From positions 13,501 to 77,500 of IMG/VR virus record IMGVR_UViG_3300017971_000032: 64,000 nt of DNA. One strand, written 5' to 3'. The DNA is from a virus. Below the pieces are notes generated by a model. It saw only the letters and a list, made by a program, of their open reading frames with translations. It was not told the origin of the DNA and searched no databases. The translations under genes and the position numbers were made by a program. Below, piece by piece: positions 26,030 to 60,944 of this stretch. Each line of letters begins with the position of its first letter. Within the stretch, counting starts at the first letter, position 1.

Positions 26030-26211
26030 AATTAGTGTTAAAAGGCAAATCTCCAATAGTGGTCATAAATAGTACTACCAATGATGATTGGATAAAATCC
26101 TTGCCTGGACACTCTGACGAGGTAGACGTAATTGACGCATCGGCTACGGTTGGCGTTGAGAAAAAAGGCATCAGGTTGGTGAAGGGCCATGATAAAGAAG
26201 CTGAAACTTAG
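26026..26211 (+). CDS. Small hypothetical protein
   Basis: ATGA overlap with the resolvase; overlaps the next gene. Confidence 0.5.
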   Translation: MKLVLKGKSPIVVINSTTNDDWIKSLPGHSDEVDVIDASATVGVEKKGIRLVKGHDKEAET

Positions 26212-27196
26212 GCTTGGTGAGAAAGGTGGTCCAGGCTCCGGTAATTGGGGACATGCGGGTCGTCCTGGGCTAGTGGGTGGTAGCTCTAAGCGCAGCGTAC
26301 ATTTTGGCCCTGGGGATGCTGGTGCTTGGGGTGAAGATTTGAATGCTTTCATGGATGAGCGCACTCCCGAATATGGTGATTGGCGTCGTGCTAGTCACCG
26401 TATTAGAGCTGTAGTGAAGTCGCAAATCACCGATGAGCTTTGTGAACGCACAGGCTTAGACAGGGAATTGGTACGTGATTTTATTAAGCAATGGGCCCAT
26501 TCCAGTAATGATTCAGATATGCGCTCCTTGTCCATTCAGGAGGCAGCCGCAGAGGAATTGGGTGTTGAGTTGAGTGATTGGCAAAAGGCATCCATAGAGA
26601 AAATATTGGATGTCAGTTGGATGGATGAGCAATACTCGCATTGGCCCAAAGAAACACTAGACAAAGCCAAGGCTGATTATTTCAATCGACTTGATCGCAA
26701 GCCCTTGATGCCAAGAGAGCAAGAACGCCAGCTTGTGCGTGCTATGTATGATTATACTCAGGAGGAGTTGGCCAAGGCAGGCTACAAGCCTGATGATACT
26801 ATAGAAGTGTACCGTGGCGTTACATATGGTGACACCAAACCTGATTTTGGTGAGAGTGATGTAATTAACTATAAAGGCAATGCCATTGAATCTTGGAGTG
26901 TAGGAGAGCAAGTGGCTGATGCATTTGCTGCTGGTGGGGGTGAGTTGGGCCCAATTGACCCGATGGGAATATTGGATTATGGGGCAACAATATCTATGAA
27001 TGTGCCGGTCAAGAATATAATATCTACAGCTCATACAGGGTTTGGGTGTTTAAAGGAGGGCGAGGTTATTGTGGCTGGTAACGTGCCTGGCTCCAAAGGG
27101 TTTGTAAATACACTGTTTGAGCCACCTACCCAAGAAGAGATTGATGAGTACATGAACTTGACAGGTGCGAGTGAAGTGATAGATTATTGGACTTAA
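26189..27196 (+). CDS. Motif-tagged ADP-ribosyltransferase-like protein
   Basis: KGGPGSGNWGHAGRPGLVGGS at aa 12-32; C-terminal VYRG...ESWS...KEGEVIV (R-S-E signature). Confidence 0.7.
   Translation: MIKKLKLRLGEKGGPGSGNWGHAGRPGLVGGSSKRSVHFGPGDAGAWGEDLNAFMDERTPEYGDWRRASHRIRAVVKSQITDELCERTGLDRELVRDFIKQWAHSSNDSDMRSLSIQEAAAEELGVELSDWQKASIEKILDVSWMDEQYSHWPKETLDKAKADYFNRLDRKPLMPREQERQLVRAMYDYTQEELAKAGYKPDDTIEVYRGVTYGDTKPDFGESDVINYKGNAIESWSVGEQVADAFAAGGGELGPIDPMGILDYGATISMNVPVKNIISTAHTGFGCLKEGEVIVAGNVPGSKGFVNTLFEPPTQEEIDEYMNLTGASEVIDYWT
26222..26284 (+). repeat. Peptide tag KGGPGSGNWGHAGRPG(L/M)VGGS, copy 1 of 6
   Basis: Seen directly in DNA and translation. Confidence 0.97.
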
Positions 27197-27197
27197 T

Positions 27198-27983
27198 ATG
27201 GATGACAAAGCATTAGCTGGCCCAATATCCCCAGAGACAGAGATACGCACTCATCCAGATGGTCAGGATTGGGTGTATTATGCTGGCCAACCTATTGTAG
27301 AGCTTGGCCGCAAGCGTGCGCTGCCTGATGAGCATTGTCATCCTGAGCCTGGGTACACTGTAGGGCGTTGTAAAATGATAAAGCGCAATGGCGAACGTTG
27401 CCGCAACCCTGTGCGCAAGGGTTGGACAGTGTGCCATTACCATGGTGCTGGCTTCCCTTCTAACCCTGGAGGTTTGAACAATAAGCAGATTGTCTCAGGG
27501 CGTCACACACCTCATCTGCCTTCCAGGCTTGTGGAAACATACCTTAACTACGCTAACAGCCCTGAGCATCTCAGTATGGCTGATGAGTTGGCCTTGCTAG
27601 ATACGCGCATGGCAGAGCTGCTGACCAGGCTAGACACGTCAGACGTGAAGCGTGCTTGGTTGAAAGTGAGACATGCACGCCAATTGTTGAACGGGGTTGA
27701 CTCGGATGATAAACGTTTGGATGATGCCATAGGTTTGTTAGATGAGGCTACGGGCATCAAAGGTGAGGACGCTGAGATATGGGATGAGATATGCGCTATT
27801 GTGGAGGAAAGACGCAAGGTTGCTGATTCAGAGCGCAAGCGTGTGACTGATGCTCAGCAAGTCATGACCTATGAGAAGGCCAATATGCTAGTGGCTTTTT
27901 TGATGTCTAGTGTCCAAACCCATGTCCAAGATCCACAGGTGCTGCGTGCCATAGCTGATGATATGAAGCGTGTTACTCTGTAA
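27198..27983 (+). CDS. Probable terminase small subunit (HGGxSTG-like zinc finger)
   Basis: C....RNGERC.......VCHYHGAG followed by a helical region; upstream of TerL. Confidence 0.6.
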   Translation: MDDKALAGPISPETEIRTHPDGQDWVYYAGQPIVELGRKRALPDEHCHPEPGYTVGRCKMIKRNGERCRNPVRKGWTVCHYHGAGFPSNPGGLNNKQIVSGRHTPHLPSRLVETYLNYANSPEHLSMADELALLDTRMAELLTRLDTSDVKRAWLKVRHARQLLNGVDSDDKRLDDAIGLLDEATGIKGEDAEIWDEICAIVEERRKVADSERKRVTDAQQVMTYEKANMLVAFLMSSVQTHVQDPQVLRAIADDMKRVTL

Positions 27984-27984
27984 G

Positions 27985-27996
27985 CGGTTTAGTATA
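27985..27996 (+). promoter_or_regulatory. Phage promoter-like motif CGGTTTAGTATA (copy 3)
   Basis: Exact copy, directly after a stop codon. Confidence 0.7.
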
Positions 27997-28000
27997 GTAA

Positions 28001-28085
28001 GTGGTGGGGGCAACGTGCCTCCTTAGGATAACCTGCAACGGGATTTGGACATCTGAATGCTTGTACTACTACTTGCCCCCACCAC
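28001..28085 (+). ncRNA. Candidate structured RNA or 5' leader closed by a 13-bp stem
   Basis: GTGGTGGGGGCAA ... TTGCCCCCACCAC enclosing about 59 nt. Confidence 0.4.
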
Positions 28086-28152
28086 TACACAAGGTAATTA
28101 TAGCTATTGTAGTAGGTGCAGACTTTAATGTGAATCGGGAGGAGTTGCAGTT

Positions 28153-28314
28153 ATGCCAGATCCAAAGCCAGAACCAAAACCAGAAGAAGTAAAAGAAACG
28201 GAGTCCGCCCAATATGTGGATCGCCATCTTCACTACATCGAAGACATCGACAGCGAGGGAGGTCACCATGGCGATTGGATAAAGATTGAGGAGAATAAAG
28301 ATGAAAGATCTTGA
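28153..28314 (+). CDS. Small acidic protein (53 aa)
   Basis: GGAGGAG RBS; MPDPKPEPKPEE... Confidence 0.55.
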   Translation: MPDPKPEPKPEEVKETESAQYVDRHLHYIEDIDSEGGHHGDWIKIEENKDERS

Positions 28315-28456
28315 ACATTCCGGCCATATAGACGAGGATCAGTTCTACAGCATCGCACTAGGTGTCTTGATTGGCGGAGTGGCCGTTCTGGTAGGATTGT
28401 TGCTTGGCGTGATTGTGGGCCGACTCGGTTTGTTGGAATTGATTCTGGGGATGTGA
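28301..28456 (+). CDS. Small membrane peptide with a glycine zipper (51 aa)
   Basis: GAGGAG RBS; LGVLIGGVAVLVGLLLGVIVG. Confidence 0.6.
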   Translation: MKDLEHSGHIDEDQFYSIALGVLIGGVAVLVGLLLGVIVGRLGLLELILGM

Positions 28457-28462
28457 GGTAAC

Positions 28463-28597
28463 ATGAAAGATCCAGCTGTAGGATTCTCGGCAAGGTTCCT
28501 GTTGTATGTGCTGATTCTAATAGCAATAGCAGGTGTAGGAATTGCCATATTTGATTTCTTGGGTCATCAGATCTTTGGCCCTGTGTGGGTGTGGTGA
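28463..28597 (+). CDS. Small membrane peptide (44 aa)
   Basis: GAGGT RBS; FLLYVLILIAIAGVGIAIF. Confidence 0.6.
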   Translation: MKDPAVGFSARFLLYVLILIAIAGVGIAIFDFLGHQIFGPVWVW

Positions 28598-28824: not shown

Positions 28825-28850
28825 AAAGTGAACGATGACGGGAGGTAAGT

Positions 28851-29081: not shown

Positions 29082-29082
29082 T

Positions 29083-29220: not shown

Positions 29221-29254
29221 CATAGGAGAGTTTGCTCAGATTTGGGGGAGATTG

Positions 29255-29368: not shown

Positions 29369-29375
29369 TGGGTGA

Positions 29376-29489: not shown

Positions 29490-29492
29490 TTT

Positions 29493-31636: not shown

Positions 31637-33187
31637 GTGCTAGATATAGAAGCGTTTCAACAGCCTGACCAGCCTGACTTGGCTAACAGGCTAATACAAG
31701 AATGGGCGGACAAGCTCACATTTGGTGGCCCTATAGATGCTAATAACCCTATAGAGTCACCTACTGAATGGATACAAACCAACTTCCTGATTGACAGGCC
31801 AAGGGAGCCGGTTACAGGAAGAGTGTTACCTAAAGGACCAATACGTCTGGCAGAGTATCAAGCCAGGGTTGTAGAAGAAGCGCTACGGCGTGACGCTGAC
31901 GGCAAGCTCATTTACAATACAATAGTGTGGTCAGAGCCAAAGAAATCAGGCAAGACGGCTGTAGCAGCAGGCGTAGGTATGTATATGGGACAGACTAATG
32001 AGGCCTGCCACATATACTGCCTGGCTAATGACGGCAAGCAATCCCAAGACCGCATATTCAATGCAATGGCCAGATCTATCCAGCTACATAATAAGCTTGG
32101 TGGATGCTATGTAGGGCTGAAAGCCACATACTCTCCGCCTACGATAGTCTTGCCCAACCGTACTAAGATTGAAGCTATCCCGTGCGACGCAGCGGGCGAA
32201 GCTGGATCAGAACCATTGATGACGATATGGTCAGAGCTGTGGGGCTATGCTCAGAAGCACAAAGAGCGCATTTGGACAGAGTTGACTATACCTCCTACAC
32301 TTCACGGCTACGCAATGCGTTGGGTTGAGAGTTATGCAGGCTATGAGGATGAATCCACCACTCTTTGGAATCTATATGATGTAGGAGTCAATCATGGCAA
32401 GCGGCATCCCCATTTCTCTGAGTTGCCTGTATATGTGAATGAGGCTGCCAAGCAACTGACATTTTGGTCTCACGAGCCCAGGCAGCCTTGGCAGACTAAA
32501 GACTACTATGCTGCTGAATCGCTGTTGCTGACACCTAATGAGTTCACGCGTATTCACTGCAACCAGTGGATCACATCTGTGACCTCATTGTTTGAGGACA
32601 TTATCACTTGGGACAAGTGTGCTAACCCTAATATTGCCAGACCACTGTTGCCAGGAGATGATACCCCACTAGTACTAGCAATGGATGCAGCCTACGCCAA
32701 TGATTGTGCGGCTATTGTGGGAGTGACACGTCATCCAGATGATGAGTGGGATGCTGAGCACAGACGTGTCATAGAACGTGTAGCATTGGTTTGGGAACCG
32801 CCCAAAGGTGATAAACTCAATTTTACCCTTACTTTAGAGCCAGCCATCATTGAGCTTTGTGAGGAGATGAACGTTTACACAGTTGTGTATGACCCATACC
32901 AGCTACACAAATTTGCCACGGATATGATGATGCAAGGCATTGCCCCATTCAAAGAGTTTTCGCAGGCTGGTAGGCGATTGCGGGCAGACAGACAGTTTTA
33001 CGATATGGTCATCCATCGTCATTACATACATTCAGGCAATGACGATATGAGACAGCATGTACGCAACTGTGCCAAGAAGGAAGAGGGCAAGAACTTGAGA
33101 TTAGTCAAGAAGTCACCCACTAAGCCCATTGACTTGGCCGTGGCCACATCAATGGCAGTGGATGAGTGCTTGAGGTTAAATATCTAG
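31637..33187 (+). CDS. terL: Terminase large subunit
   Basis: LAEYQ, PKKSGKT (Walker A), IWSE (Walker B variant), LAMDAA, YDPYQ, PIDLAVATSMA. Confidence 0.92.
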   Translation: MLDIEAFQQPDQPDLANRLIQEWADKLTFGGPIDANNPIESPTEWIQTNFLIDRPREPVTGRVLPKGPIRLAEYQARVVEEALRRDADGKLIYNTIVWSEPKKSGKTAVAAGVGMYMGQTNEACHIYCLANDGKQSQDRIFNAMARSIQLHNKLGGCYVGLKATYSPPTIVLPNRTKIEAIPCDAAGEAGSEPLMTIWSELWGYAQKHKERIWTELTIPPTLHGYAMRWVESYAGYEDESTTLWNLYDVGVNHGKRHPHFSELPVYVNEAAKQLTFWSHEPRQPWQTKDYYAAESLLLTPNEFTRIHCNQWITSVTSLFEDIITWDKCANPNIARPLLPGDDTPLVLAMDAAYANDCAAIVGVTRHPDDEWDAEHRRVIERVALVWEPPKGDKLNFTLTLEPAIIELCEEMNVYTVVYDPYQLHKFATDMMMQGIAPFKEFSQAGRRLRADRQFYDMVIHRHYIHSGNDDMRQHVRNCAKKEEGKNLRLVKKSPTKPIDLAVATSMAVDECLRLNI

Positions 33188-44675: not shown

Positions 44676-47195
44676 TTGAGCAAGAAGCCGTTTAGCGTAC
44701 AACAAGCACAGAATGTCGAGCCATTAGATCTCGGCATGTCTCTGCCAATAACATTCTTCTCCAACCAGGAGATAGCTCCTGAATGGGATGCGGCTGATAG
44801 GGACGCTTGGCTGCGTAAATTTTGGAAGATGTTTGGTAATGACATGCTACAGGGTGTCTTGGCTGCTAGTGTAGCTAAGGTTCAAACCCAGAACTGGGAG
44901 CTGGAAGGGCCAGAAGGTCTGGTTGACTTGTACCATCCTATCATGCGGGATGACGCTAACTTTGGCAAAGGCTATGGCGATCTGGTAGCCAGGGGTGTGG
45001 TTGACTACTACACACAGGATAATGGATGGTTTATGGAACGTCAGCGTTCTGGCGCTAAAGACCACGAAGGCCCCATGTTAGGTTTGGCTCACCTAGATTC
45101 TGCTCGCATGAGACCTACAGGCAATGCTGACTATCCATACATATACATGGATGTGTATGGAGAGCATCACTTAATGCATCGTTCTCAGTTCATAAGAATT
45201 GTGGACATGCCTAATCCTAAGACTGAGCTTCACGGTTGGGACAAAGGATTCTGTGCTTTGTCCAGAGCACTCTCCACTGCTCTCATATTGACAATGCTCG
45301 TGACGCTGAAACAAGAGAAGCTATCAGATCTGCCTCCCTCAGCGCTGGCAATCTTCAACAACCTAACACGCAAACAGTTTGAGAAGGCTATATCACTATA
45401 TGGGGCGCAGGAGGACATGAAAAACAACACTGTTTGGCGTTCTCTCATGCCTCTGTTTGGTATAGATCCAGCCCATCCAGCCAGCGTTCAATTCATATCA
45501 TTACGGGAAGTGTGGGAGTCATATGATGACATGACTGCCATGAATATTGCTGCATACTCGTTTGCGGCTGCTTGGCGCATAGATCCACGTGAATTTTGGC
45601 CGGTCTCTCAAGGCCCACTCGGCACTGGCAAGGAGGCAGAGGTTCAGCATCAGAAGGCCAAGGCTAAGTCCACAGGGTTGTTGTTCACAGAGATTGAACG
45701 TGCCTTCAATGCTCGTGAGAGCTTGCCGGATGGGTTGACATTCAAATATGCGCTTCAGGATGCAGATGAGGAACAGCAACGTGCAGCTATACACCAGCTT
45801 CAGATAGGCAATGTAAAGACTATGCAAGAAGCTGGTGCGTCGTTGACACCGGACGAGGTACGATGGATATTATCTACACAGTACAGGATACTGCCTAGAG
45901 AATTGGCTAAAGTGCCTGCCGAGGGTGAGGAGTTCAATCTGGTCAACGCCCGTATGTATCTGGATGACGTGGAGCGTCAGGCCAAAGAGTATCATGGATG
46001 GTACTGGGGGCCATGTGTAAGGATGGATGCCTACGGCAAGAAGGAGATGGCATCCCCTGGCGGATCCAGGTTGCCTACAGGCATAATGTATTTAGGTGAG
46101 AAGGGTGGTCCAGGTAGCGGGAATTGGGGACATGCGGGTCGTCCTGGGATGGTTGGTGGTAGTGCTAAGCGTGGTGGAGGTATTGCTGGTGTAACTTTGG
46201 TGGATAGGGCCAGTGAGGTAATGCAGGATGATGGTGGTAGTTTAAGATATTATATAATGCCTGATGGGAAACTAGCGGATGTGTCGGGAACTGATGATGG
46301 TGCAAGCGAATGCACCCATGCCGAATATGCGGCAAGGTTTCCAGGTTTATTTGGTATAGACAAGAAGCCAATGACTTTGGAAGAAATATGGCAAACGCAT
46401 ACTGGGTTGAGCGTGGAAGTGGCAAAGGAATATTTGCAGGATGTGAATGATGCAGGTGCTATAACGGTTTTACAATATGGCAATCAAATTGGACTTGCAG
46501 GCAATTTGCCAATCACGACTCCAAACTTACGTAAAATACATTCTTGGTTGGATAAGGGTAAATTGCCTGTAAGACGCAACTCCACATATGCATGGCAAGA
46601 TATGTCGAGCGGAAAATCTGTTACAGTTAGTTATGATGATTTGATAACGTCCAGAAATGTGAGAGATTTGCAAGTGTTATCTAAGGAGCTCAATGACAAT
46701 CTTGTCTTTGGATCCAAAGAAGCATTAACTGATGGTTTGAAGGGGCAATTTACCTGTTGTGAGAGCCATGCGGCTCAGATGTTCCCAGACATAGTCAATG
46801 ATTTGTTTGAGTTAGGCTATCTGTCTGTGGAAGAGGCTTGCAAAGCCAGTATGGCTCCATCTGCTTGGGTGTATGGTGTAGCAGGCGCGATTGCTCCAGC
46901 TACTGCTGGCAAGCGTGATGTCTTGCTGGCTGCTGCCGAGGAAATTTCACGTTGCTTGGGTGAAGTTGAATTTGCTTTGGGGGAGAAGGAGAGCAAGGGG
47001 TTGCAGACCATCAACCAAAAGATAGCATCCCTGCCTGCCCCTATTGCACGCACCGTTCGAGACAATGCCAAACGTTTACAGGGTGCCATGAATTCAACAA
47101 CCAAACGCAGACAGAATGCTTTGAAGGCTATTCCTGATGAGTTGTGGGATGAATGGGTGGCTGAGGATGAGTTGGCAGAGCAAATAGGGACTTGA
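44676..47195 (+). CDS. Portal protein with a long motif-tagged C-terminal extension
   Basis: First gene of the head operon; DYYTQDNGWFMERQR...LGLAHLD portal-like pattern; tag at aa 476. Confidence 0.75.
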   Translation: MSKKPFSVQQAQNVEPLDLGMSLPITFFSNQEIAPEWDAADRDAWLRKFWKMFGNDMLQGVLAASVAKVQTQNWELEGPEGLVDLYHPIMRDDANFGKGYGDLVARGVVDYYTQDNGWFMERQRSGAKDHEGPMLGLAHLDSARMRPTGNADYPYIYMDVYGEHHLMHRSQFIRIVDMPNPKTELHGWDKGFCALSRALSTALILTMLVTLKQEKLSDLPPSALAIFNNLTRKQFEKAISLYGAQEDMKNNTVWRSLMPLFGIDPAHPASVQFISLREVWESYDDMTAMNIAAYSFAAAWRIDPREFWPVSQGPLGTGKEAEVQHQKAKAKSTGLLFTEIERAFNARESLPDGLTFKYALQDADEEQQRAAIHQLQIGNVKTMQEAGASLTPDEVRWILSTQYRILPRELAKVPAEGEEFNLVNARMYLDDVERQAKEYHGWYWGPCVRMDAYGKKEMASPGGSRLPTGIMYLGEKGGPGSGNWGHAGRPGMVGGSAKRGGGIAGVTLVDRASEVMQDDGGSLRYYIMPDGKLADVSGTDDGASECTHAEYAARFPGLFGIDKKPMTLEEIWQTHTGLSVEVAKEYLQDVNDAGAITVLQYGNQIGLAGNLPITTPNLRKIHSWLDKGKLPVRRNSTYAWQDMSSGKSVTVSYDDLITSRNVRDLQVLSKELNDNLVFGSKEALTDGLKGQFTCCESHAAQMFPDIVNDLFELGYLSVEEACKASMAPSAWVYGVAGAIAPATAGKRDVLLAAAEEISRCLGEVEFALGEKESKGLQTINQKIASLPAPIARTVRDNAKRLQGAMNSTTKRRQNALKAIPDELWDEWVAEDELAEQIGT
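46101..46163 (+). repeat. Peptide tag copy 2 of 6 (inside portal)
   Basis: KGGPGSGNWGHAGRPGMVGGS. Confidence 0.97.
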
Positions 47196-47198: not shown

Positions 47199-48779
47199 AT
47201 GCCACCACGTCAATGGGAGCCAATAGTTGAAGATTTCTCTGTGGTGATGAAGAAGGTACACCTTCTCTTTCGCCGTGATCAAGTGGACATTGAAAATATA
47301 TATGCCGAGATCTTCCGTGAGAAGCGTGAGGCCTACGAGGATGGATTGGCAATCCAAGCAGCTAATGTAGGATGTGCTGGCAGACGTGGCATCACTCCGC
47401 CTGATGTGATGAAGGAAATTAGTGATGAGGCTCACACGGAGGCAGCTGGCATAGCTAATACATACAACTACGATTTGGCTTTGGCTGTGAGGGCCATTCG
47501 TACTGAGACGCCACGTGCCAACCGTTGGACATATGCTAAACGTTTGGGTGAGTGGGAAGCCACGCGTGACGAGTGGAAGAGCAAGCAAATATCGCTGTGG
47601 AATCAGATGAAGTGGCAAGACCGTGCCACACGTGATTTCATGCAACACAACCCACAAGCATTGAAGGGTTGGGCCAAGGTTGAGCCATCTGGTCGCGCAG
47701 TTTGCGATGTGTGTCAATATTGGGTCAATCGGGGCAAGGTGTCCATAGATGAGACACGCAAACAAGAATGGCCAGCTCATCTGAATTGTCCTCATTATTG
47801 GGATGTGCATTACACAGGCAAGGTGGATTGCAAGGAGCTGTGGCTTGGCGCACCATTGCGTGAGTGGTGGGAGGGCAAGGAGATTGGAGAGAAAGGTGGC
47901 CCTGGTTCTGGTAACTGGGGACACGCAGGTCGTCCTGGAATGGTAGGTGGTAGTGCTAAGCGTAGCGTGGCCATGTCTATCAGAACTGGTAGAGATTGGC
48001 AGGAAAGACAACAAGCAGCCAAGAAGATGGCCGAAGCTCAGAAGGCATCTGTGGCTGGTGTGGAAGGGGAATGTAAGCGTGCTATTGATGAATTTATTGG
48101 GGACATTAGTTATGGCCCAGGTGCTTTTGATAATCTGGTAGAGATAAATGATGACGACATTAAAGCCATGTTTGGATTGGGTCATATGGATTATAGGGCT
48201 GATATTAAGGTGATCACTGTGGGAGAGCATGGCAATGTGACCAGACTTGAGATAGATTATTATGATGCGGATGGATCTACAGTAGCCAATGTGGCAAGAG
48301 AGTTGCGCAGGATGGGTGGTGAGGAATGGATGGCATACAACGAGCTGTTGGATGTAATGCCTGAGTATCAGGACAAGGGCATAGCAACCAGTTTGTATAA
48401 TAGGCAGATATACACATTAAGGAATGCCGGTGCATCTGAAATTCAATTATATGCTAATATATCTATAGGACGTTATGCATGGGCCAAAAAGGGGTTTGAT
48501 TATAAGGAAGGCAGCAAGAAATATACGTTGAGACGGGTCAATAGCAATTTTAGGAAATGGGCAGATGACAAGGGCATTCCTGAGCCTTCTGGGGGTTGGC
48601 CTACATTTGATTCAGCCCATAGCGTAGCCACATATAGTCACCCCACTCACACAGTGAAAGGATCGGACATATACAATGATGATGTGGCTGATGATTATGT
48701 TATGCACTTAGGCAAAGCGTTCATGTTGGAATTGCATCACGGGCATGGGCCATGGAATGGCGTATTGAAGTTGAACTGA
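47199..48779 (+). CDS. MuF/SPP1 gp7-like minor head protein fused via the tag to a GNAT acetyltransferase domain
   Basis: VCDVC...PAHLNCPH (MuF C-terminal motif); V.PEYQDKGIATSL...YAWAKKGF (GNAT). Confidence 0.75.
   Translation: MPPRQWEPIVEDFSVVMKKVHLLFRRDQVDIENIYAEIFREKREAYEDGLAIQAANVGCAGRRGITPPDVMKEISDEAHTEAAGIANTYNYDLALAVRAIRTETPRANRWTYAKRLGEWEATRDEWKSKQISLWNQMKWQDRATRDFMQHNPQALKGWAKVEPSGRAVCDVCQYWVNRGKVSIDETRKQEWPAHLNCPHYWDVHYTGKVDCKELWLGAPLREWWEGKEIGEKGGPGSGNWGHAGRPGMVGGSAKRSVAMSIRTGRDWQERQQAAKKMAEAQKASVAGVEGECKRAIDEFIGDISYGPGAFDNLVEINDDDIKAMFGLGHMDYRADIKVITVGEHGNVTRLEIDYYDADGSTVANVARELRRMGGEEWMAYNELLDVMPEYQDKGIATSLYNRQIYTLRNAGASEIQLYANISIGRYAWAKKGFDYKEGSKKYTLRRVNSNFRKWADDKGIPEPSGGWPTFDSAHSVATYSHPTHTVKGSDIYNDDVADDYVMHLGKAFMLELHHGHGPWNGVLKLN
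47892..47954 (+). repeat. Peptide tag copy 3 of 6 (inside MuF-like protein)
   Basis: KGGPGSGNWGHAGRPGMVGGS. Confidence 0.97.
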
Positions 48780-49227: not shown

Positions 49228-50541
49228 ATGCCGTATTCTAGTATGGAACAAGCTAATCCATCACTCAAAGGCATCGAGCCGCCTATTTCATTGATACAAG
49301 CCAACCAGATAGCAGCGGTGGCAGACAGAATCACAGGCGTGGACAGCCCCTGGGCAGTGGCTATCAGTCAGTTCAAGAAAAGTCATACTGTCAAGGATGG
49401 TAAGTGGGTCAAGAAGGAAGGCAGTGAGTGGGGTGGCAAGAAGGAGTACGTATCTGGGCTGAAGGCCATCGAACGTGATGGTGATCAGTATCTAGTGCTG
49501 TGGACATCGAATGCGTTCGAAGATGACGAGAAGGAGATCTTTGCAACTAAGGCATGGGAGGACTATGTTGAACGTTGTGATGAAAATCCTGAACTGCGTG
49601 GGCGTGTGTGGTTCTGGCATGTCAAATCTACGGACTTCGCAGATGTTGTCTGGCAGGGTATGGTAGGGCGCATTCTTGTGGAGGTGGCTAAGGTTGACAA
49701 TACGGCATATGGTCAGAAGATGTTCCATGCGCTCCAGAATCCAGATGAGCACCCGGACGTGGTGCCGTTTGGGTGGGGCACTAGCCATGGGTATGTGTAC
49801 AAGCCTGGCACGAAGCATATAGGGCCACCAAATGTGTATACGTGGGTTCATAAATTTGAGACTACCGTGTTGCCGTACGACCGGGCAGCGAACAAACACG
49901 GTGGCGTCAAGGAGGTGATAGACATGTCCGTTTCAAAGAAGAAGGTTGAAGGTCTGGCTAGCATCGTTGGTGAGGATCAAGCCAAGCAGCTGTTGGGAGA
50001 TACTGAGGCTGCCAGTGACGAGTACGAGAAGCAGTATGCCTTCAAGGAGAAGGACGAGGCTGGGGATGAGGATGAGAAGGGTGTTGCCAAGCCTGTCAAA
50101 GCGGTGACTGAGGATGAAGAAGACGAGGAAGAAAAGGCTGAGGAAGAGGAAACCGCTGAGGAATCCAAGGAGGTGTGGGAGATGGAGGTGACTGATGAAT
50201 TAATGAAGGAGATTGCCGCCCATGTCCCAGTGGCTGAGGCTGTCGAGGCAGTTGTCAAGGAGCTAATGCCTAAGTATCTGGGCGAGGCACTGAAGGAATT
50301 GGTGCCACAGATGGAAACGGCAGTGAAGGAAGCTGTTGAATCCACCACTGTGGCATCCAAGGAGAGTATTGTCCAACAGGCAGTGGCTGGCACGTTGCGA
50401 TTGACGCCCTACTCTGCTAGCAAGGATGAGGGCAACGTGGTGAGTGAGAAGGAAGTGGATGAGCACTTCAAGGGCAATGACAAAGCCCAGCAGGGTGATG
50501 TAGTCCATGCAGTAGTCCAGCGCATGTTGGCTGGCATGTAG
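49228..50541 (+). CDS. Probable prohead protease/scaffold protein with ChaB-like N-terminus
   Basis: Lies before the capsid gene; MPYSS...KDGKWVKK; SNAFEDD.KE, FWH, GTSHGY, FETTVLP...AAN; acidic helical C-terminus. Confidence 0.65.
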   Translation: MPYSSMEQANPSLKGIEPPISLIQANQIAAVADRITGVDSPWAVAISQFKKSHTVKDGKWVKKEGSEWGGKKEYVSGLKAIERDGDQYLVLWTSNAFEDDEKEIFATKAWEDYVERCDENPELRGRVWFWHVKSTDFADVVWQGMVGRILVEVAKVDNTAYGQKMFHALQNPDEHPDVVPFGWGTSHGYVYKPGTKHIGPPNVYTWVHKFETTVLPYDRAANKHGGVKEVIDMSVSKKKVEGLASIVGEDQAKQLLGDTEAASDEYEKQYAFKEKDEAGDEDEKGVAKPVKAVTEDEEDEEEKAEEEETAEESKEVWEMEVTDELMKEIAAHVPVAEAVEAVVKELMPKYLGEALKELVPQMETAVKEAVESTTVASKESIVQQAVAGTLRLTPYSASKDEGNVVSEKEVDEHFKGNDKAQQGDVVHAVVQRMLAGM

Positions 50542-50586
50542 TATAGATCTATTGCACTTATTTATAATTTGATTGGAGGTGGAATT

Positions 50587-52158
50587 ATGGCTACTGAAAA
50601 TGGCCTGAACGTGGATGTTCTGGCCGGTGCGTTGGCACGAGTGATGCTTCACCCTGAGCAATACGGTGCGGACGTGTCCTATCCGTTGTTCAAAGGGGTG
50701 ATGGGGCAAGGTACGAAGGGAGTCACTGGAACACCATCCTTTGTGTCTGCCCATGGTCCTGGGGGCATCTTCTCTACGCCTGGCATCGAGAATGTGGTGG
50801 TGAATGCGCATATGACGCCAAGGGACATGGACAGCATGCTGCCTGTGTACCCCACAGTGTACACCAATCCATTGTACCCATCCCTGACCGGGTTTTCAGA
50901 GGACGATGGTGATGAACCTACAGGCGAGTGCGAGAACTGCCTGGGTGGGACGATGCAGGGTTGCACACTCACTGCCACGTTCGGACGTGTGTGCCGTGAG
51001 ACTGACGAGATCGCAATCAATGAGACAATGCAGATGATCAATCGTGGCGAGACCACGCCGTTGACAATCCTGGGTGATGTGCTCGGCCCTGGTGGCATCT
51101 CTCGTATGCCTAACACGCCTGGGGAATGGCTGGAGGTGGTCACTCGCGCAGAGATGGTGAAAGTTGCCGTGCTCATCCAGCGCTGGTTGGTGCGGCGCAC
51201 ATGGGATGGCAATCCGGCCAACAACACTGGCCCTGGCTATATGGAGTTCCCTGGCCTCAACATGCTCGTTGGCACTGGCAAGATGGATGCCATCACCGGC
51301 ACAGCCTGCCCTGCCCTTGACAGTGATGTCAAGAACTTCAACTATACTGATGTAGGAGGGGCAGTGGCTGGTAACAACATCGTGGTCTACATGAGTATGC
51401 TGGAATGGTGGATTCGTCACAATGCTGACCGTATGGGTTTGGAGCCTGCGACGTGGCTGTGGGCAATGAGACCGGAGCTGTGGTTTGAACTCACGGCCAT
51501 CTGGCCTTGCTCCTATCTCACGGATCGATGCAACAACACGCAGCAAGCCATGCGTTGGGCGCAGGATCCTGGTGGTGGCTGGCACTCAATCCCGATGGGC
51601 AACACATATCTGGAGGGAACGACCAACGTGGACATGCGGGATGCGATGCGCCAGAATCTCCAGCTCACCGTGAATGGCCGCACATACCCGGTGGTGCTGT
51701 GCGATGGTATACCTGAGGAGCAGGGTGGCGATCCAAGCCTGGACAACTGGGTGGACGATCTGGATCCGGGCGAGTTCGCTTCTGACATCTTCTTCCTGCC
51801 TCTGACGTGCCGTGGTGGGATGAAGACGCTGTATTGGGAGCACATGGACTACTCCAAGGCCAATTCAGAGGTGGCATTGTCTAAGTCCGGCAACGACTTC
51901 TGGACTGATGGCGGACGCTTCTTCTGGACAGCGGAACGGAAGATGTGGTGCTACATCATGGCGGCAAAGATCCAGCCACGCATCATCCTCCGTACGCCAC
52001 ACATTGCGGGACGCATCGACGACGTGGCATACACTCCGCTCCAGCACCTGCGCAGTCCCTTCTATGGCGATCCGTACTTCTTGAAGGGTGGTGTCAGCAC
52101 ACGGGACAACCCTGCGAGTGACTACTACTCCGAGTGGAATCCTACAGGGCCAAGGTAA
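50587..52158 (+). CDS. Major capsid protein
   Basis: Follows protease/scaffold; GGAGGT RBS; WDGNPANN...EFPGL pattern; C-rich codon usage distinct from its neighbours. Confidence 0.75.
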   Translation: MATENGLNVDVLAGALARVMLHPEQYGADVSYPLFKGVMGQGTKGVTGTPSFVSAHGPGGIFSTPGIENVVVNAHMTPRDMDSMLPVYPTVYTNPLYPSLTGFSEDDGDEPTGECENCLGGTMQGCTLTATFGRVCRETDEIAINETMQMINRGETTPLTILGDVLGPGGISRMPNTPGEWLEVVTRAEMVKVAVLIQRWLVRRTWDGNPANNTGPGYMEFPGLNMLVGTGKMDAITGTACPALDSDVKNFNYTDVGGAVAGNNIVVYMSMLEWWIRHNADRMGLEPATWLWAMRPELWFELTAIWPCSYLTDRCNNTQQAMRWAQDPGGGWHSIPMGNTYLEGTTNVDMRDAMRQNLQLTVNGRTYPVVLCDGIPEEQGGDPSLDNWVDDLDPGEFASDIFFLPLTCRGGMKTLYWEHMDYSKANSEVALSKSGNDFWTDGGRFFWTAERKMWCYIMAAKIQPRIILRTPHIAGRIDDVAYTPLQHLRSPFYGDPYFLKGGVSTRDNPASDYYSEWNPTGPR

Positions 52159-52252: not shown

Positions 52253-52840
52253 ATGAGCAAAACTTATCTGGTGCGTGTATGTAAAGCGCGTGATGAGGGG
52301 CAAGGCGTGGGTGGTGTTAGGCAGGGGGATGGTGGCGCAGACAAGTGCTATTGCCCCGATTGTGACAAGACCTTTGCCCATGAAAAAGGCAAGCCTTGCT
52401 CTGAGCAGGCCTGTCCTGAGTGTGGTGGCACTCTTCAAGGGGTGGGGGAGAAAGGTGGTCCTGGTTCTGGTAATTGGGGTCATGCAGGCAGACCTGGGCT
52501 AGTAGGTGGTAGTGCCGGCAGAGGTGGGGGCGGAGTTGCGAAGACGGCTCAAGGAGCGTTTGACCCACGCATGCCGTTGAGTGAAGTTGAGAAATTAATG
52601 AGGGATGATGGGTGGGAAGTAGGGACTATGTATGGAACCACGGCATTAGGGCATTCCAAGGTCAAGGGAGACGGGGTGGCCATGGCAGTGGAGAGCGATG
52701 ATGCTGGACGGTGGGGCACAGAATTGACTATCAGATCTGGCAGTTGGAGTACTACTATAGATGCTGGCAGTTTGAGATTTACTCCGGAGCAGGCTCACAG
52801 CAAATTGAGGGCGAAATTGCAGGAGCATTTTCAGGAGTGA
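52253..52840 (+). CDS. Zinc finger + peptide tag + unknown cargo
   Basis: CYCPDC...H..G.PC....CPECG, then tag at aa 67. Confidence 0.75.
   Translation: MSKTYLVRVCKARDEGQGVGGVRQGDGGADKCYCPDCDKTFAHEKGKPCSEQACPECGGTLQGVGEKGGPGSGNWGHAGRPGLVGGSAGRGGGGVAKTAQGAFDPRMPLSEVEKLMRDDGWEVGTMYGTTALGHSKVKGDGVAMAVESDDAGRWGTELTIRSGSWSTTIDAGSLRFTPEQAHSKLRAKLQEHFQE
52451..52513 (+). repeat. Peptide tag copy 4 of 6
   Basis: KGGPGSGNWGHAGRPGLVGGS. Confidence 0.97.
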
Positions 52841-57009: not shown

Positions 57010-57096
57010 ATATGCCTCAGATACATTGTCGCCAAGTACGTTCCAGAGGCTTAAGACCTGATTGGGATGAGGTAATCAAGGTCGTGGCTGATGGTA
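57010..57096 (+). repeat. 87-bp exact direct repeat, copy 1
   Basis: Identical to 58014-58100. Confidence 0.9.
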
Positions 57097-57557
57097 TGGA
57101 TAGGGAGGTCAAGCCTAAGATCTTAAGCTACTTCTTCCGTATCGTGGCGCATTGGAAGGAGGAGGACAGACCTGGCTTTAAGGCCACTAAGCGCATAACT
57201 AGGGATTATATCAAGCTTTACGTCTTCCCAACTGGCCCTAACAAGAATATATGGAAGTGGGTGTCTGTCACAGGTTGCAAGGCCAGGGATATAGTAGTAA
57301 GGAAAGCTAAGTGGTTGCGGTTCAGGTGGGCGGGGCCAGGTAGCTATAAAGCGCGCACCGACAAGTCAGGCCATTACAAGGGGCCAGGTGAGGCATTTGG
57401 TCCTATTATTCGTAGATTTGTAGTGGATTGGCCAGGGTTTGATCCGCGCAATTTCGAGAAGCATATTGCGCGTTGGACATTGAAGTGGTATCGTCGCACT
57501 ATGGAGAAGCTGTTCAAAAAAGGCATACGTGCGGCCAAGGCTAAGGCGAGACGTTAA
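57012..57557 (+). CDS. Basic neck/tail-completion-like protein
   Basis: Position; KAKWLRFRW...VDWPGFDPRNF pattern. Confidence 0.55.
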   Translation: MPQIHCRQVRSRGLRPDWDEVIKVVADGMDREVKPKILSYFFRIVAHWKEEDRPGFKATKRITRDYIKLYVFPTGPNKNIWKWVSVTGCKARDIVVRKAKWLRFRWAGPGSYKARTDKSGHYKGPGEAFGPIIRRFVVDWPGFDPRNFEKHIARWTLKWYRRTMEKLFKKGIRAAKAKARR

Positions 57558-58003
57558 TGACAATCACTCTCCTAGTACGCGTTAAGGGTGGTCCAGGCTC
57601 CGGTAATTGGGGTCATGCAGGTAGACCTGGACTAGTAGGTGGTAGCTCTAGGGCTGGTGGTGGTGCTTATGATAAGTTGTCTGTTAGTAATGTTAAGAAA
57701 GTGCTAAGTGAGGCGGGTTTGCCCGTATCTAAGGGTTCTAGCGTTAGTCGCAGGGCTGCATCTTCCAGGGCTGTTAGAACTCAAGGCTTTCTTGTTGAAC
57801 CTTATAGGGACAAAGTTGAGGTTAAATGGTCTGCCAAGACTAGGTCGGCTCGATTGCGCAAAGATGATATGCTCAAACAAGCAGCTCAAGCAATAGTTAA
57901 AGAAGGATCATTTGTCGCATCCTTGGAGAATGTAGAAATACCTCCATTGCCTGGTCATCAGCCAAAAACTATGTTGAGATTATTTGTAGAGTTTGGAGGT
58001 TAA
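57557..58003 (+). CDS. Leader + peptide tag + unknown basic cargo
   Basis: MTITLLVRV-tag; TAATG coupling with the previous gene. Confidence 0.75.
   Translation: MTITLLVRVKGGPGSGNWGHAGRPGLVGGSSRAGGGAYDKLSVSNVKKVLSEAGLPVSKGSSVSRRAASSRAVRTQGFLVEPYRDKVEVKWSAKTRSARLRKDDMLKQAAQAIVKEGSFVASLENVEIPPLPGHQPKTMLRLFVEFGG
57584..57646 (+). repeat. Peptide tag copy 5 of 6
   Basis: KGGPGSGNWGHAGRPGLVGGS. Confidence 0.97.
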
Positions 58004-58013
58004 GGACAATACG

Positions 58014-58100
58014 ATATGCCTCAGATACATTGTCGCCAAGTACGTTCCAGAGGCTTAAGACCTGATTGGGATGAGGTAATCAAGGTCGTGGCTGATGGTA
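58014..58100 (+). repeat. 87-bp exact direct repeat, copy 2 (truncated duplicate of the 57012 gene start)
   Basis: Re-encodes MPQIHCRQVRSRGLRPDWDEVIKVVADG, then diverges. Confidence 0.9.
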
Positions 58101-58157
58101 CAGAATGGAGTATGATGACTATTATATGTGAAGGACTTATTACTAGGAGGTGGAATT

Positions 58158-59609: not shown

Positions 59610-59627
59610 GTGTGGTAGGAGGTTGAT

Positions 59628-60356
59628 TTGGAGTTGACAATAGTTCAACTGGTGGGTGAGTGGGAGGTGCAGGTCACGCCTGTGCCTCCCCAAGCCAGTT
59701 TCAGATGGTCCAAGCATCACGTCAAATATCCACCTAAGCCCTACAGGCCCATGGTGGAGATAAGATCTAAGCTATTGCCTGAAGGCGCACCTCCGGAGAT
59801 AGTGCCTGCTTTGCCAGAATCCCCAGAATGGAATGGTTGGCTGGAGGAAATGAAAATCTGGCAGGAGGAATGCGAGCATATTCGTGAGGAGATGGCTCCT
59901 AAGGAGATGGAATTCTCTTTGGACTATGCTGTCAAAGGATGGCGCAAGAAGGGTTCGGAGGATGAATGGCTTGCTGAGCCGCCTGATGGATGGCTTCCCA
60001 GTGAAGCATTGGAGAGACATGGTATTGAGGATGGGTTGAGTGTGCGGCTATCTTTTATATACTACGAGTTGTTGGCCCATCCGCAGAACTTTGATTTGAT
60101 AATGGCAGCAGCCTTCCCCAAGGGGGAGCGGGACACATCCCTCATAAGTGAGGAGGAGGTGGATGCTGCTCTCAGCAAATTTCGATCTGGAGGTGGAATG
60201 TCTGGATCAGCCGGGCATGTGGGAACCAATGCCGGAACCGGAACCCAAGTCAGGGGAGCCCAGGGTGCGGATGAGCACGTTCGCAGAGGAAATGTTTCTA
60301 GCAGACGCAAAGGGACTATCGCCAGATGGTTGGTACGAACTTTCCAGAGGAAGTAG
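59628..60356 (+). CDS. Tail assembly chaperone (gpG-like)
   Basis: Lies between the tail tube-like gene and tape measure; has an overlapping downstream frame. Confidence 0.6.
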   Translation: MELTIVQLVGEWEVQVTPVPPQASFRWSKHHVKYPPKPYRPMVEIRSKLLPEGAPPEIVPALPESPEWNGWLEEMKIWQEECEHIREEMAPKEMEFSLDYAVKGWRKKGSEDEWLAEPPDGWLPSEALERHGIEDGLSVRLSFIYYELLAHPQNFDLIMAAAFPKGERDTSLISEEEVDAALSKFRSGGGMSGSAGHVGTNAGTGTQVRGAQGADEHVRRGNVSSRRKGTIARWLVRTFQRK

Positions 60357-60435
60357 GGTGGTGATGGTGGCGGTGAAGCGTGCCAGGGCCAGGATAGAAC
60401 ATCTTTACCGTGAGTTACAGGAAGCCAATCAATGA
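60180..60435 (+). CDS. Probable +1 frameshift extension of the tail chaperone (gpGT-like)
   Basis: AAA TTT CGA at 60177-85; the +1 frame stays open to 60435 and ends in an ATGA overlap with the next gene. Confidence 0.55.
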
Positions 60436-60944
60436 CAATCAAACTTCTAGTTTGCGTTAAGGGTGGTCCTGGTTCTGGTAATTGGGGTCATGCGGGTCGT
60501 CCTGGGCTAGTGGGTGGTAGTGCCGGTAGAGGTAGTGGATTGGTATGTAAGATGAATGCGGCAGATGTGGAGGAAAGATACTTCCATAATGCTGGGCCTA
60601 ATACTGATGCGGTGCTTGCGTCAGGAGTGATAAGGGGATCAGAAGACAACTTTGCCCCATATGTGTATAGGGGTTGGACAGCTGGGATGGGTAATCAAAC
60701 CGTCGTTTTTGGAGTTCCGAAGAGACAACTACATAATTTTAGGTTCACATTCACTAATGAGGTGGCTAGCAATTTGAAGGATACGCATTTGTCTGATGCA
60801 GGGGTTAAGGTGATAGTGTATGACAAGTCTACTAAGTTATACTATGATCTGACGAAAGCGTATGAATCTGGTTCCAGCACGGAAGCAGAATTATTAACTG
60901 TTTGGGAGAATGAGATGATTGGATTGTCTGGTATTGAGGCATGA
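60432..60944 (+). CDS. Leader + peptide tag + cargo with weak ART-fold resemblance
   Basis: MTIKLLVCV-tag; YFHN...DAVLASGVIRGS...YVY. Confidence 0.7.
   Translation: MTIKLLVCVKGGPGSGNWGHAGRPGLVGGSAGRGSGLVCKMNAADVEERYFHNAGPNTDAVLASGVIRGSEDNFAPYVYRGWTAGMGNQTVVFGVPKRQLHNFRFTFTNEVASNLKDTHLSDAGVKVIVYDKSTKLYYDLTKAYESGSSTEAELLTVWENEMIGLSGIEA
60459..60521 (+). repeat. Peptide tag copy 6 of 6
   Basis: KGGPGSGNWGHAGRPGLVGGS. Confidence 0.97.

What the first reader, a model, noticed from the sequence alone, without database searches (positions are those of the whole stretch)
26189..60944. One 21-aa peptide tag on six unrelated proteins: a candidate tag-plus-cargo system for virion-delivered effectors
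SEEN: KGGPGSGNWGHAGRPG(L/M)VGGS occurs at 26222, 46101, 47892, 52451, 57584 and 60459. The copies match at 20 of 21 residues, but codons differ synonymously (Ser TCC/AGC/TCT, Arg CGT/AGA), so selection acts on the peptide. What follows each tag is different: an R-S-E ADP-ribosyltransferase, a GNAT domain, a possible second ART fold and three unknown domains. What precedes it is either a head protein (portal, MuF-like) or a short beta-strand-like leader ending in Lys (MTITLLVRVK, MTIKLLVCVK, MIKKLKLRLGEK; MSKTYLVRVCK starts the zinc-finger copy). Five of the six lie in the morphogenesis operon. DNA similarity is mosaic: the 5' half of copy 1 matches copy 5 and its 3' half matches copy 6. KNOWN: MuF proteins can carry polymorphic C-terminal toxins; T4 Alt is a packaged, protease-processed and injected ART; HK97 prohead protease cuts after Lys; Rhs and CdiA toxins have conserved peptides marking the swap point. 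INFERENCE: leader or head-protein fusion targets the cargo to the prohead, cleavage at K|GGPG frees it with a common N-terminus that acts as a packaging or ejection signal, and the 63-nt tag doubles as a recombination handle for cargo exchange. I do not recognise this as a described system.
Basis: partly seen in the sequence, partly recalled or inferred. Interest (0 to 1): 0.95.

Follow-up and report, generated by a model that had tools for sequence, protein, structure and literature searches.

The report
Cleavable header tag on phage-head cargo
A marine phage puts the same 20-residue glycine-rich peptide in front of six unrelated protein modules, and comparison with thousands of metagenomic phage proteins indicates that the junction just before it is cut by the phage's own head-maturation protease, which would leave a set of swappable enzymes inside the capsid, all starting with the same peptide.

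Summary
K-GGPGSGNWGHAGRPG(L/M)VGGS occurs six times, all on the + strand. Of the 63 nt, 20 sites vary, and they cause only one amino-acid change. The genome is a complete 77.5-kb phage from sediment and seawater metagenomes.

I confirmed by fold that the carriers and neighbours include a portal, a gp21-like prohead protease fused to a scaffold, and an HK97-fold capsid protein.

The tag is widespread. It hits 3808 protein clusters, with up to 10 copies per protein, joined to portals, MuF, ADP-ribosyltransferases (ARTs), GNAT, NUDIX, zeta-toxin and other domains. It matches no Pfam, PHROG or NCBIfam model and appears in no searchable paper.

The tag is nearly invariant, but the residue before it is fixed within a genome and differs between genomes (K, R, D, E, N, L/A). 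That residue tracks the head-protease family. [LIM]-x-E|GG goes with T4-type S77, D with DUF2213 proteases, and K/R with this phage's protease family.

Close portal relatives carry different cargo, or none while keeping the Lys sites.

Best reading: these are cargo cassettes cut by the prohead protease. What the tag itself does is unresolved. Cleavage and packaging are inferred, not shown.

This scan found the same tag earlier on other DNA.

The parts
26189..27196 (+). Stand-alone tagged protein (335 aa). It has a 12-aa leader MIKKLKLRLGEK, the tag at 26222-26284, and a DRAT-like ADP-ribosyltransferase cargo at 26285-27193. It lies outside the head operon, next to a RusA-like resolvase gene.
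   Evidence: tag; the cargo aligns to tag-delimited modules of P0046, P0035, P0034 and P0003; those modules carry DRAT hits (P0003 54 bits at 574-661); no direct Pfam or PDB sequence hit. RusA neighbour.
44676..46100 (+). Portal core (aa 1-475), ending in the P-side motif GIMYLGEK.
   Evidence: AF2 model from a 40-sequence alignment, pLDDT 73. Foldseek gave 100 hits at E<=1e-3; all listed are phage or GTA portal/neck entries, best 8qje at 1.9e-11.
46101..46718 (+). Tag (46101-46163) plus an unknown cargo of about 185 aa, inserted in the portal gene. It ends at a second Lys site, NLVFGSK|E (K681).
   Evidence: ortholog P0296 (78% identical) lacks this segment but keeps GVMFLGLK|G and NLIFGSK|E; the segment differs among orthologous portals.
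46719..47195 (+). Conserved C-terminal domain of this portal lineage (FGSKE...CCESH...). It contains a further LGEK|E at aa 768-771.
   Evidence: it is shared by relatives with and without the tag.
47199..48779 (+). 526-aa protein. The N-terminal domain (aa 1-231) is MuF-like on weak evidence, ending EIGEK. The tag is at 47892-47954, followed by a probable GNAT acetyltransferase cargo at 47955-48776.
   Evidence: GNAT 17-18 bits, below the cut-off; phrog_27103 and phrog_25452 on aa 335-511; aa 168-232 align to the C-terminal part of PF04233 in P0003 and P0048; no direct MuF hit.
49228..50541 (+). Prohead protease fused to a scaffold (437 aa). It has a small N-terminal helical domain, a gp21/assemblin-fold protease domain (aa ~76-250) and an acidic, helical tail. 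It is the candidate enzyme that cuts at K|GG.
   Evidence: His131 and Ser186 are invariant in 33 homologues; best structural match is T4 gp21 (5jbl), Z 11.4, 132 aa, rmsd 3.3; herpesvirus assemblins score Z 6-7.8. Atlas structural neighbours are S78 proteases; no Pfam S78 or ClpP hit.
50569..52158 (+). HK97-fold major capsid protein (529 aa).
   Evidence: TM 0.74-0.83 to major-capsid clusters.
52253..52840 (+). 195-aa protein. It has a leader-like start MSKTYLVRVCK, a Cys4 zinc ribbon, VGEK, the tag at 52451-52513, and a 108-aa unknown cargo.
57557..58003 (+). Stand-alone tagged protein (148 aa). It has the leader MTITLLVRVK, the tag at 57584-57646, and a 118-aa unknown cargo.
   Evidence: together with the 181-aa gene upstream, it is bracketed by an exact 87-bp direct repeat.
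60432..60944 (+). Stand-alone tagged protein (170 aa). It has the leader MTIKLLVCVK, the tag at 60459-60521, and a 140-aa unknown cargo.
   Evidence: P0084 is 62% identical over 159 aa and has the same architecture.

Best explanation
The six copies mark cargo cassettes destined for the phage head. Each cassette has three parts: a short P-side element specific to the phage lineage (here hydrophobic-x-G-x-K or LLV-x-V-K), an almost universal 20-residue header (GG-P-GSG-N-F/W-G-H-x-GRPG-x-V-GGS), and a variable domain. The P-side element is supplied either by a head protein (portal, MuF-like) or by a leader of about 10 residues. I infer that the phage's own prohead protease (49228-50541) cuts between the Lys and the first Gly inside the procapsid. 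That would remove the leader or free the cargo from its carrier, so every cargo (a DRAT-like ART, a probable GNAT, four unknowns) ends up as a separate protein with the same free GG... N-terminus. The cargo would sit in the capsid, probably to be ejected with the DNA. Shown here: the tag exists and is under purifying selection, it is widespread, the P-side residue matches the protease family, cargo varies among orthologous carriers, and the portal, protease and capsid genes are correctly identified. Inferred: cleavage, encapsidation and ejection. Unresolved: what the invariant header does. Every architecture would yield the same free N-terminal header, and portal-fused copies keep it intact although their packaging is already assured. 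I therefore favour a role that needs the exposed header after cleavage (release or ejection, or a role in the host) over a pure recruitment signal.
For: (1) Six copies; 20 variable nt cause one amino-acid change.
(2) A profile of the tag hits 3808 cluster representatives at E<=1e-3 among 1.84 billion, with up to 10 copies per protein. Co-occurring domains include portals (PF04860, PF06381, PF06074), MuF, ARTs, GNAT, NUDIX, zeta toxin and 2'-5' RNA ligase.
(3) There is a sharp break at the junction. Entropy is 3.6-4.0 bits at P6-P2, against about 0 at 12 tag positions (partly fixed by the search pattern). The tag consensus is the same in every class.
(4) The residue before GG is identical in 157 of 194 multi-tag proteins (shuffle mean 19.5, max 31). 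The exceptions are mostly L/A or K/R mixes. In 42 of the 43 records compared it is a single residue or an L-type mix.
(5) Upstream patterns are class-specific: L-[VIT]-E-R|, L-[RK]-[AT]-L|, [LIM]-x-E|.
(6) Protease match across 44 records. T4-type S77 occurs only in E-class records, 3 of 5, and the other two are fragments of 9 and 15 kb. T4 gp21 and its relatives cut after Glu (PMC9026906). DUF2213, which matches phrog_530 'head maturation protease' at E 6.6e-83, occurs in 15 of 18 D-class records, weakly in 3 of 4 L and 1 of 1 N, and in no K, R or E record. This phage's protease family occurs only in K-class (own, G008, G011) and R-class (G039) records.
(7) Half of the tagged proteins (123 of 241) start with a leader of 30 aa or less, most often 10 aa. 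E-class leaders resemble the T4 capsid targeting sequence.
(8) A tag-less portal ortholog keeps the same Lys sites, and orthologous portals carry different cargo.
(9) The protease, portal and capsid genes were identified by fold.
Against: There is no direct evidence for cleavage, packaging or ejection: no cultured phage with the tag, no proteome, and no RNA run listed. The association between class and protease rests on few independent lineages; the D-class records, for example, are one related group. Uniformity within a genome could partly reflect gene conversion, because sequence after GGS is also homogenised within proteins. T4's own substrates need no such header, so protease recognition does not explain why the header is conserved. 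Twenty phages with a related protease (28-44% identity) have no tag within 10 kb, so that protease family works without it. No other Phi-Phi-G-x-K site was found in the capsid or protease proteins here.
Confidence: 0.62

Rival explanations
1. The header is mainly a loading address, like an encapsulin cargo-loading peptide or the C-terminal targeting tail of the HK97 protease. It would dock onto the procapsid interior, scaffold, portal or protease and so recruit cargo. Cleavage at the junction would be secondary or absent for some copies.
For: Stand-alone single-domain proteins carry leader plus tag although nothing needs separating. Strong conservation suggests a specific binding partner. The capsid protein has the HK97 fold, as encapsulin shells do.
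Against: Portal-fused copies keep the tag under purifying selection although their packaging is already assured. The tag is invariant across phages whose capsid, portal and protease proteins share no detectable sequence similarity. No shared partner gene appeared within 10 kb at BLAST sensitivity.
Confidence: 0.17
2. The peptide is only a flexible hinge between domains of polyvalent proteins and is not cleaved. The uniform preceding residue would reflect recent duplication and gene conversion.
For: The tag is rich in Gly, Ser and Pro and lies between domains. Sequence after GGS is homogenised within proteins, which shows concerted evolution.
Against: A hinge needs no invariant His, Arg-Pro and aromatic residue in every class, and no copy 10 residues from the N-terminus of single-domain proteins. 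Gene conversion does not explain why the E class coincides with T4-type proteases, or why each class has its own P4-P2 pattern.
Confidence: 0.08
3. The junctions are cut, but not by the prohead protease. The enzyme would be a host protease, or a peptidase domain of the polyvalent protein acting after injection, as Iyer et al. proposed for the zincin-like domains of polyvalent proteins.
For: Iyer et al. 2017 propose peptidase-mediated release of domains after delivery (PMC5512222). The invariant header could be the recognition element of a conserved enzyme.
Against: No peptidase domain other than the prohead protease was found among the head-operon and tagged genes scanned here. The variable P1 residue tracks the phage's head protease, not a constant enzyme.
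Confidence: 0.08
4. The main function is at the DNA level: the 63-nt repeat is a recombination handle for cassette shuffling, and the peptide is incidental.
For: Cargo modules always align starting at the tag and occur in different orders and carriers. Copy 1 has a mosaic pattern. The phage encodes a recombinase, an exonuclease and a RusA-like resolvase.
Against: Synonymous divergence leaves identical runs of only 11-32 nt. Selection is plainly on the peptide. Shuffling may well happen, but as a by-product.
Confidence: 0.05

Closest known systems
T4 internal proteins and Alt with their capsid targeting sequence (CTS), processed by prohead protease gp21; likewise the ejection proteins of phiKZ and SPN3US (PMC9026906)
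   Same: A propeptide of about 10 residues is cut off by the prohead protease. The cargo is diverse and non-essential, includes an ART, is held in the head and is ejected. The CTS has itself been suggested as a way for T4-like phages to load varied proteins. E-class tag phages have T4-type proteases, [LIM]-x-E| junctions and CTS-like leaders.
   Different: T4 substrates have no conserved sequence after the cut. Here an almost invariant 20-residue header follows the cut and is shared by phages with at least three different head-protease families. Cassettes are also strung into polyproteins and inserted into portals.
Phage-type polyvalent proteins (Iyer, Burroughs, Anand, de Souza, Aravind 2017, PMC5512222)
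   Same: Multi-domain phage proteins that combine MuF, ART-PolyVal, NUDIX, 2H phosphoesterase and other conflict domains, predicted to be delivered with the DNA. Relatives found here (P0004, P0005, P0008) carry ART-PolyVal.
   Different: The paper's text contains neither 'linker' nor 'glycine', and it attributes processing to zincin-like peptidase domains. Here, processing sites are matched to the prohead protease. The paper's supplementary alignments could not be read.
MuF polymorphic toxins of temperate phages (Jamet et al. 2017, PMC5576092)
   Same: A head protein (MuF) carries a variable C-terminal toxin or effector domain. Cargo is polymorphic among related phages.
   Different: No junction motif or cleavage is described there. 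In this phage the MuF assignment is weak, no immunity gene is evident, and the same tag also heads portal-fused and stand-alone cargo.
Encapsulin cargo-loading peptides, and the C-terminal targeting tail of the HK97 protease (from general knowledge, not tested here)
   Same: A short peptide tag sends unrelated cargo into an HK97-fold shell.
   Different: Those tags are C-terminal, bind the shell and are not cleavage-linked. No binding of this tag to the shell was tested.

Membership tests
Prohead (capsid maturation) protease, gp21/HK97/assemblin fold: gene 49228-50541 | Assemblin-like fold | tested here: met
   VIA Z 11.4, 132 aa, rmsd 3.3 to T4 gp21 (5jbl). Herpesvirus assemblins follow at Z 6-7.8.
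Prohead (capsid maturation) protease, gp21/HK97/assemblin fold: gene 49228-50541 | Conserved catalytic His and Ser | tested here: met
   His131 and Ser186 are invariant in 33 homologues. I did not check that they superpose on the gp21 catalytic residues.
Prohead (capsid maturation) protease, gp21/HK97/assemblin fold: gene 49228-50541 | Match to a curated sequence model (Pfam S77, S78 or ClpP) | tested here: not met
   No hit in hmmscan of the protein. PF04586 and PF00574 gave no hit in the own genome. PF03420 was searched only in the other 43 records. The protein belongs to the fold, not to a curated sequence family.
Phage portal protein: 44676-46100 | Portal fold | tested here: met
   Foldseek gave 100 hits at E<=1e-3; all listed are phage or GTA portal/neck entries. 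No Pfam hit.
T4-type CTS-targeted internal proteins | Short N-terminal propeptide ending in the protease's P1 residue | tested here: met
   Leaders here are 10-12 aa and end in Lys. Across relatives the commonest leader length is 10 aa. The P1 class matches the protease family.
T4-type CTS-targeted internal proteins | Shown to be incorporated in the prohead, cleaved and ejected | not testable with these tools
   No cultured tag-bearing phage was found and there is no proteome.
Polyvalent proteins (Iyer et al. 2017) | Two or more unrelated conflict or effector domains in one phage polypeptide | tested here: met
   In this window there are only two-part proteins (portal+cargo, MuF-like+GNAT-like). 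Relatives have up to 10 tag-delimited modules, including ART-PolyVal.
MuF polymorphic toxins (Jamet et al. 2017) | N-terminal MuF (PF04233) domain | tested here: inconclusive
   No Pfam hit even at E<=1. Only aa 168-232 align to the C-terminal part of PF04233 in P0003 and P0048.
MuF polymorphic toxins (Jamet et al. 2017) | Cognate immunity gene downstream of the toxin domain | not tested
   A 448-bp gap follows the gene before the protease gene. I did not examine it for a small immunity gene.
R-S-E ADP-ribosyltransferases (DRAT-like): cargo of 26189-27196 | Sequence match to an ART family | tested here: inconclusive
   No direct Pfam or PDB hit. The link is transitive: the cargo aligns to P0003 374-656 (E 2e-12), which contains a DRAT hit of 54 bits, and weaker DRAT hits occur in P0034 and P0024.
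Encapsulin cargo-loading peptide | C-terminal peptide that binds the inner face of the shell | tested here: not met
   The tag is N-terminal to its cargo in all 740 instances tabulated. Binding to the shell was not tested.

The most novel reading that the evidence does not exclude
The 20-residue header would be a lineage-independent delivery code for phage protein cargo. Any domain given 'local protease site + GG-header' would be loaded into the head, trimmed to a free GG... N-terminus, and ejected into the host. The header would be read by something common to all tailed phages (the DNA, or the exit path through portal and tail) rather than by a lineage-specific protein. That would make cargo freely portable between unrelated phages, needing only a change of the P-side residues.
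Probability: 0.3. Interest if true: 0.9.

Novelty: new variant of a known kind. Interest (0 to 1): 0.8.

Why it matters
Proteins packaged in the capsid and injected with the DNA are a phage's first actors in the host: counter-defence, host takeover. Outside T4, P1, N4 and the giant phages they are hard to recognise from sequence. If this reading is right, the header is a simple sequence flag that picks out thousands of candidate injected effectors in metagenomes and marks their domain boundaries. The residue before it would also report the specificity of each phage's head protease, which is otherwise rarely known. Finally, the system would offer a natural, portable design for loading foreign proteins into phage heads, an extension of the T4 CTS approach.

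Tried and rejected
- Complex prediction, protease domain (aa 1-272, alignment A3) with leader+tag (A1): verdict 'no answer', score 0.00. This is not evidence either way.
- tblastn of tagged proteins, the tag alone, and a four-tag protein against 50,697 GenBank phage records: no tag hit. BLAST's low-complexity filter may mask the tag, so absence from cultured phages is not established.
I used IMG/VR loci and whole-record family searches instead.
- Pfam S78 and ClpP searches of 44 records: none found.
- hhalign of this phage's protease family against DUF2213 proteases: no similarity. I could not show that the header is always read by one fold.
- PDB sequence searches with copy 1 and with the protease profile: nothing significant.
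- Search for a partner gene shared by tag-bearing loci (all-against-all BLAST of 3422 ORFs, tags masked): only the cargo supercluster spans the classes.
- Scan for further Phi-Phi-G-x-K sites in the head proteins of this phage: none in the capsid or protease proteins.
- Sequencing runs: the phage is held by a sediment and a seawater metagenome; no RNA holder is listed.
- Ideas considered and dropped for lack of any test or support: an AT-hook-like GRP DNA hook, Gly-Ser self-cleavage, and the tag Arg as an ADP-ribosylation target.
- 'Possible second ART fold': not supported. The ART domain of portal relative P0321 lies outside the region that aligns to this phage's portal cargo.

Full report
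**Observation.** Translating the window in six frames finds exactly six copies of KGGPGSGNWGHAGRPG(L/M)VGGS. Their Lys codons start at 26222, 46101, 47892, 52451, 57584 and 60459, all on the + strand. The window is part of a 77.5-kb record whose ends overlap by 124 bp, so the genome is complete, and it holds no further copy. Among the six 63-nt copies, 20 sites vary, spread over 16 codons. Only Leu/Met changes the peptide, and Ser switches between TCN and AGY and Arg between CGT and AGA. Selection therefore acts on the peptide.

**Genes around the copies.** Pfam and PHROGs recognise almost nothing in the head operon, so I used structure.
- Portal: residues 1-475 of the 839-aa protein, modelled from 40 homologues, gave 100 Foldseek hits at E<=1e-3, and all those listed are phage or GTA portal/neck entries.
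- Protease: the 437-aa protein two genes downstream has invariant His131 and Ser186 in 33 homologues. Its residues 76-217 match T4 prohead protease gp21 at Z 11.4, with herpesvirus assemblins next. An acidic, helical, scaffold-like tail follows.
- Capsid: the next gene encodes an HK97-fold major capsid protein.
- Terminase: the large terminase subunit is at 31637-33187.

Five tagged genes lie in this operon. The sixth (26189) lies among recombination genes.

**Cargo.**
- Copy 1 is DRAT-like by transitive homology only.
- Copy 3 is a probable GNAT, scoring below Pfam's cut-off.
- The other four are unknown.
- The 'second ART' was not confirmed.
- 'MuF-like' rests on a roughly 60-residue transitive alignment.

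**How widespread the tag is.** A profile of the six copies finds 386 proteins in one database. In another it finds 3808 cluster representatives at E<=1e-3 out of 1.84 billion, with up to 10 copies per protein. In 245 of the best hits I tabulated 740 instances. The consensus is GG-P-GSG-N-F-G-H-A-GRPG-E-V-GGS. Modules between tags have a median length of 225 aa. Half of the proteins begin with a leader of 30 aa or less, most often 10 aa. Co-occurring domains are three portal families, MuF, several ART families, GNAT, NUDIX, zeta toxin, 2'-5' RNA ligase, poly(A) polymerase/HD and others. This is the repertoire of the 'polyvalent proteins' of Iyer et al. 2017. No Pfam, PHROG or NCBIfam model matches the tag, even in proteins with 2-6 copies. 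No paper in the searchable library contains any of 12 spellings of it. The polyvalent-protein and MuF-toxin papers mention no such linker. Hits in binned genomes come from Lachnospiraceae, Clostridia, Christensenellales, Succinivibrio and a Methanothrix bin.

**The junction behaves like a protease site.** The header has the same consensus everywhere, but conservation stops abruptly at its first Gly. Entropy is 3.6-4.0 bits at P6-P2, against about 0 at 12 header positions, although several of those were fixed by my search pattern.

The residue just before the header is different in character.
- It is identical in 157 of 194 multi-tag proteins (shuffle mean 19.5), and the exceptions are mostly L/A or K/R mixes.
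- In 42 of the 43 IMG/VR records compared it is a single residue or an L-type mix.
- Each class has its own upstream pattern: L-[VIT]-E-R|, L-[RK]-[AT]-L|, [LIM]-x-E|, K-x-L-N|.

I then typed the head proteases of 44 records. No record breaks the pattern.

| Head protease family | Classes where found | Classes where absent |
|---|---|---|
| T4-type Peptidase_S77 | E: 3 of 5 (the other two are fragments of 9 and 15 kb) | all 38 other records |
| DUF2213, which is phrog_530 'head maturation protease' (E 6.6e-83) | D: 15 of 18; weakly L: 3 of 4 and N: 1 of 1 | K, R, E |
| This phage's own protease family | K: own, G008, G011; R: G039 | all others |

T4 gp21 and its giant-phage relatives are known to cut after Glu (PMC9026906). 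The match between the E class and S77 is therefore mechanistic, not just statistical. E-class leaders also resemble the T4 capsid targeting sequence MKTYQEFIAE.

The caveat is that the classes are few lineages, so the number of independent associations is small.

**Cargo exchange.** Of 120 homologues of this portal, 14 carry a tag, always after Lys. The closest relative, P0296 (78% identical), has no tag and no cargo. It still keeps both flanking Lys sites (GVMFLGLK|G and NLIFGSK|E), joined by a short spacer to the conserved C-terminal domain. So in this phage, tag plus cargo (aa 476-681) is an insertion between two native Lys sites of the portal. Other orthologues carry an exoenzyme-type ART, a DRAT-like domain, a zinc ribbon or unknown domains at this place. 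The cargo of copy 1 recurs as an internal module of polyproteins in other phages, and the alignment usually starts at or next to the tag. The refutation test 'homologues always keep the same cargo' therefore fails. Identical DNA runs between the six copies are only 11-32 nt. The tag is thus at best a weak recombination handle.

**What the header does.** This remains open.
- Twenty phages with a related protease have no tag nearby, and T4 substrates need none. The protease alone therefore does not explain the header.
- Portal-fused copies keep it under purifying selection although their packaging is already assured. That argues against a pure recruitment signal.
- Single-domain proteins carry leader plus header although nothing needs separating. 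That argues against a mere spacer.
- The common outcome of all architectures is a cargo with a free GG-header N-terminus. I therefore favour a role after cleavage, in release or ejection, or in the host. This is inference.
- A predicted complex of protease and leader+tag gave no answer.
- I found no partner gene shared by tag-bearing loci.

**Verdict.** The finding is real and striking, and it is not in the literature or family libraries I could search. It extends two known ideas, T4-style protease-processed head cargo and polyvalent proteins, with a new near-universal header and a lineage-matched cleavage site. Cleavage, packaging and ejection are all still untested. This scan met the same tag earlier in other genomes (e1-5852166, e1-5922746, e1-6053483). 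I reproduced the link between P1 residue and protease on an independent sample. What I add here is that tag-less orthologues retain the Lys sites, that cargo differs among orthologous portals, and that the K/R class goes with a gp21-fold protease family.

Noticed in passing
window 57010-57096 and 58014-58100: An exact 87-bp direct repeat, 1004 bp apart, brackets the 181-aa gene (57012-57557) and the tagged gene 57557-58003. The second copy starts a truncated 51-aa ORF. It looks like a recent duplication or insertion scar and could delete or amplify the unit.
   Followed up: partly
window 52860-55808: A 982-aa protein with three glycosyltransferase domains (GT4/GT1 and two GT2) lies inside the head operon, between the zinc-ribbon tagged gene and the neck genes. 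It may glycosylate virion proteins.
   Followed up: no
P0002 / record G008 (L013): In a K-class relative, the homologue of this phage's protease is the C-terminal module of a 1578-aa polyprotein with five tags. That arrangement resembles a viral polyprotein with an embedded protease.
   Followed up: partly
window 49228-49440 (aa 1-70 of the protease): A small helical N-terminal domain precedes the protease domain. It recurs at the start of other head-operon proteins in E-, K- and R-class loci, for example L020 frame starting at 13133 and L036. The top Atlas feature neighbour is a cluster in which 68% of members carry ChaB. It may be a shared targeting or assembly domain.
   Followed up: no
L004, L007, L010, L018, L022 and others (D-class DUF2213 proteases): Many D-class head proteases begin ...K-R-V-I-R-L-D-S. 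This resembles the R-x-D| pattern seen before the tag in several of the same genomes, so it may be a self-processing site. The DUF2213 alignment has invariant His74, Ser124 and His154.
   Followed up: partly
P0396 (portal homologue, 710 aa): This portal carries an exoenzyme-type ART (96 bits) but no GG-header. The junction region contains HNQSDGRF instead, possibly a second, different junction motif.
   Followed up: no
window 31637-33187: In the large terminase subunit, only the C-terminal nuclease half (aa 299-512) matches PHROG models. The N-terminal ATPase half is not recognised.
   Followed up: no
window 52253-52285: The zinc-ribbon protein starts with a leader-like MSKTYLVRVCK that is not followed by a header. 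It may be a Lys site without a tag, like those kept in tag-less portal orthologues.
   Followed up: no
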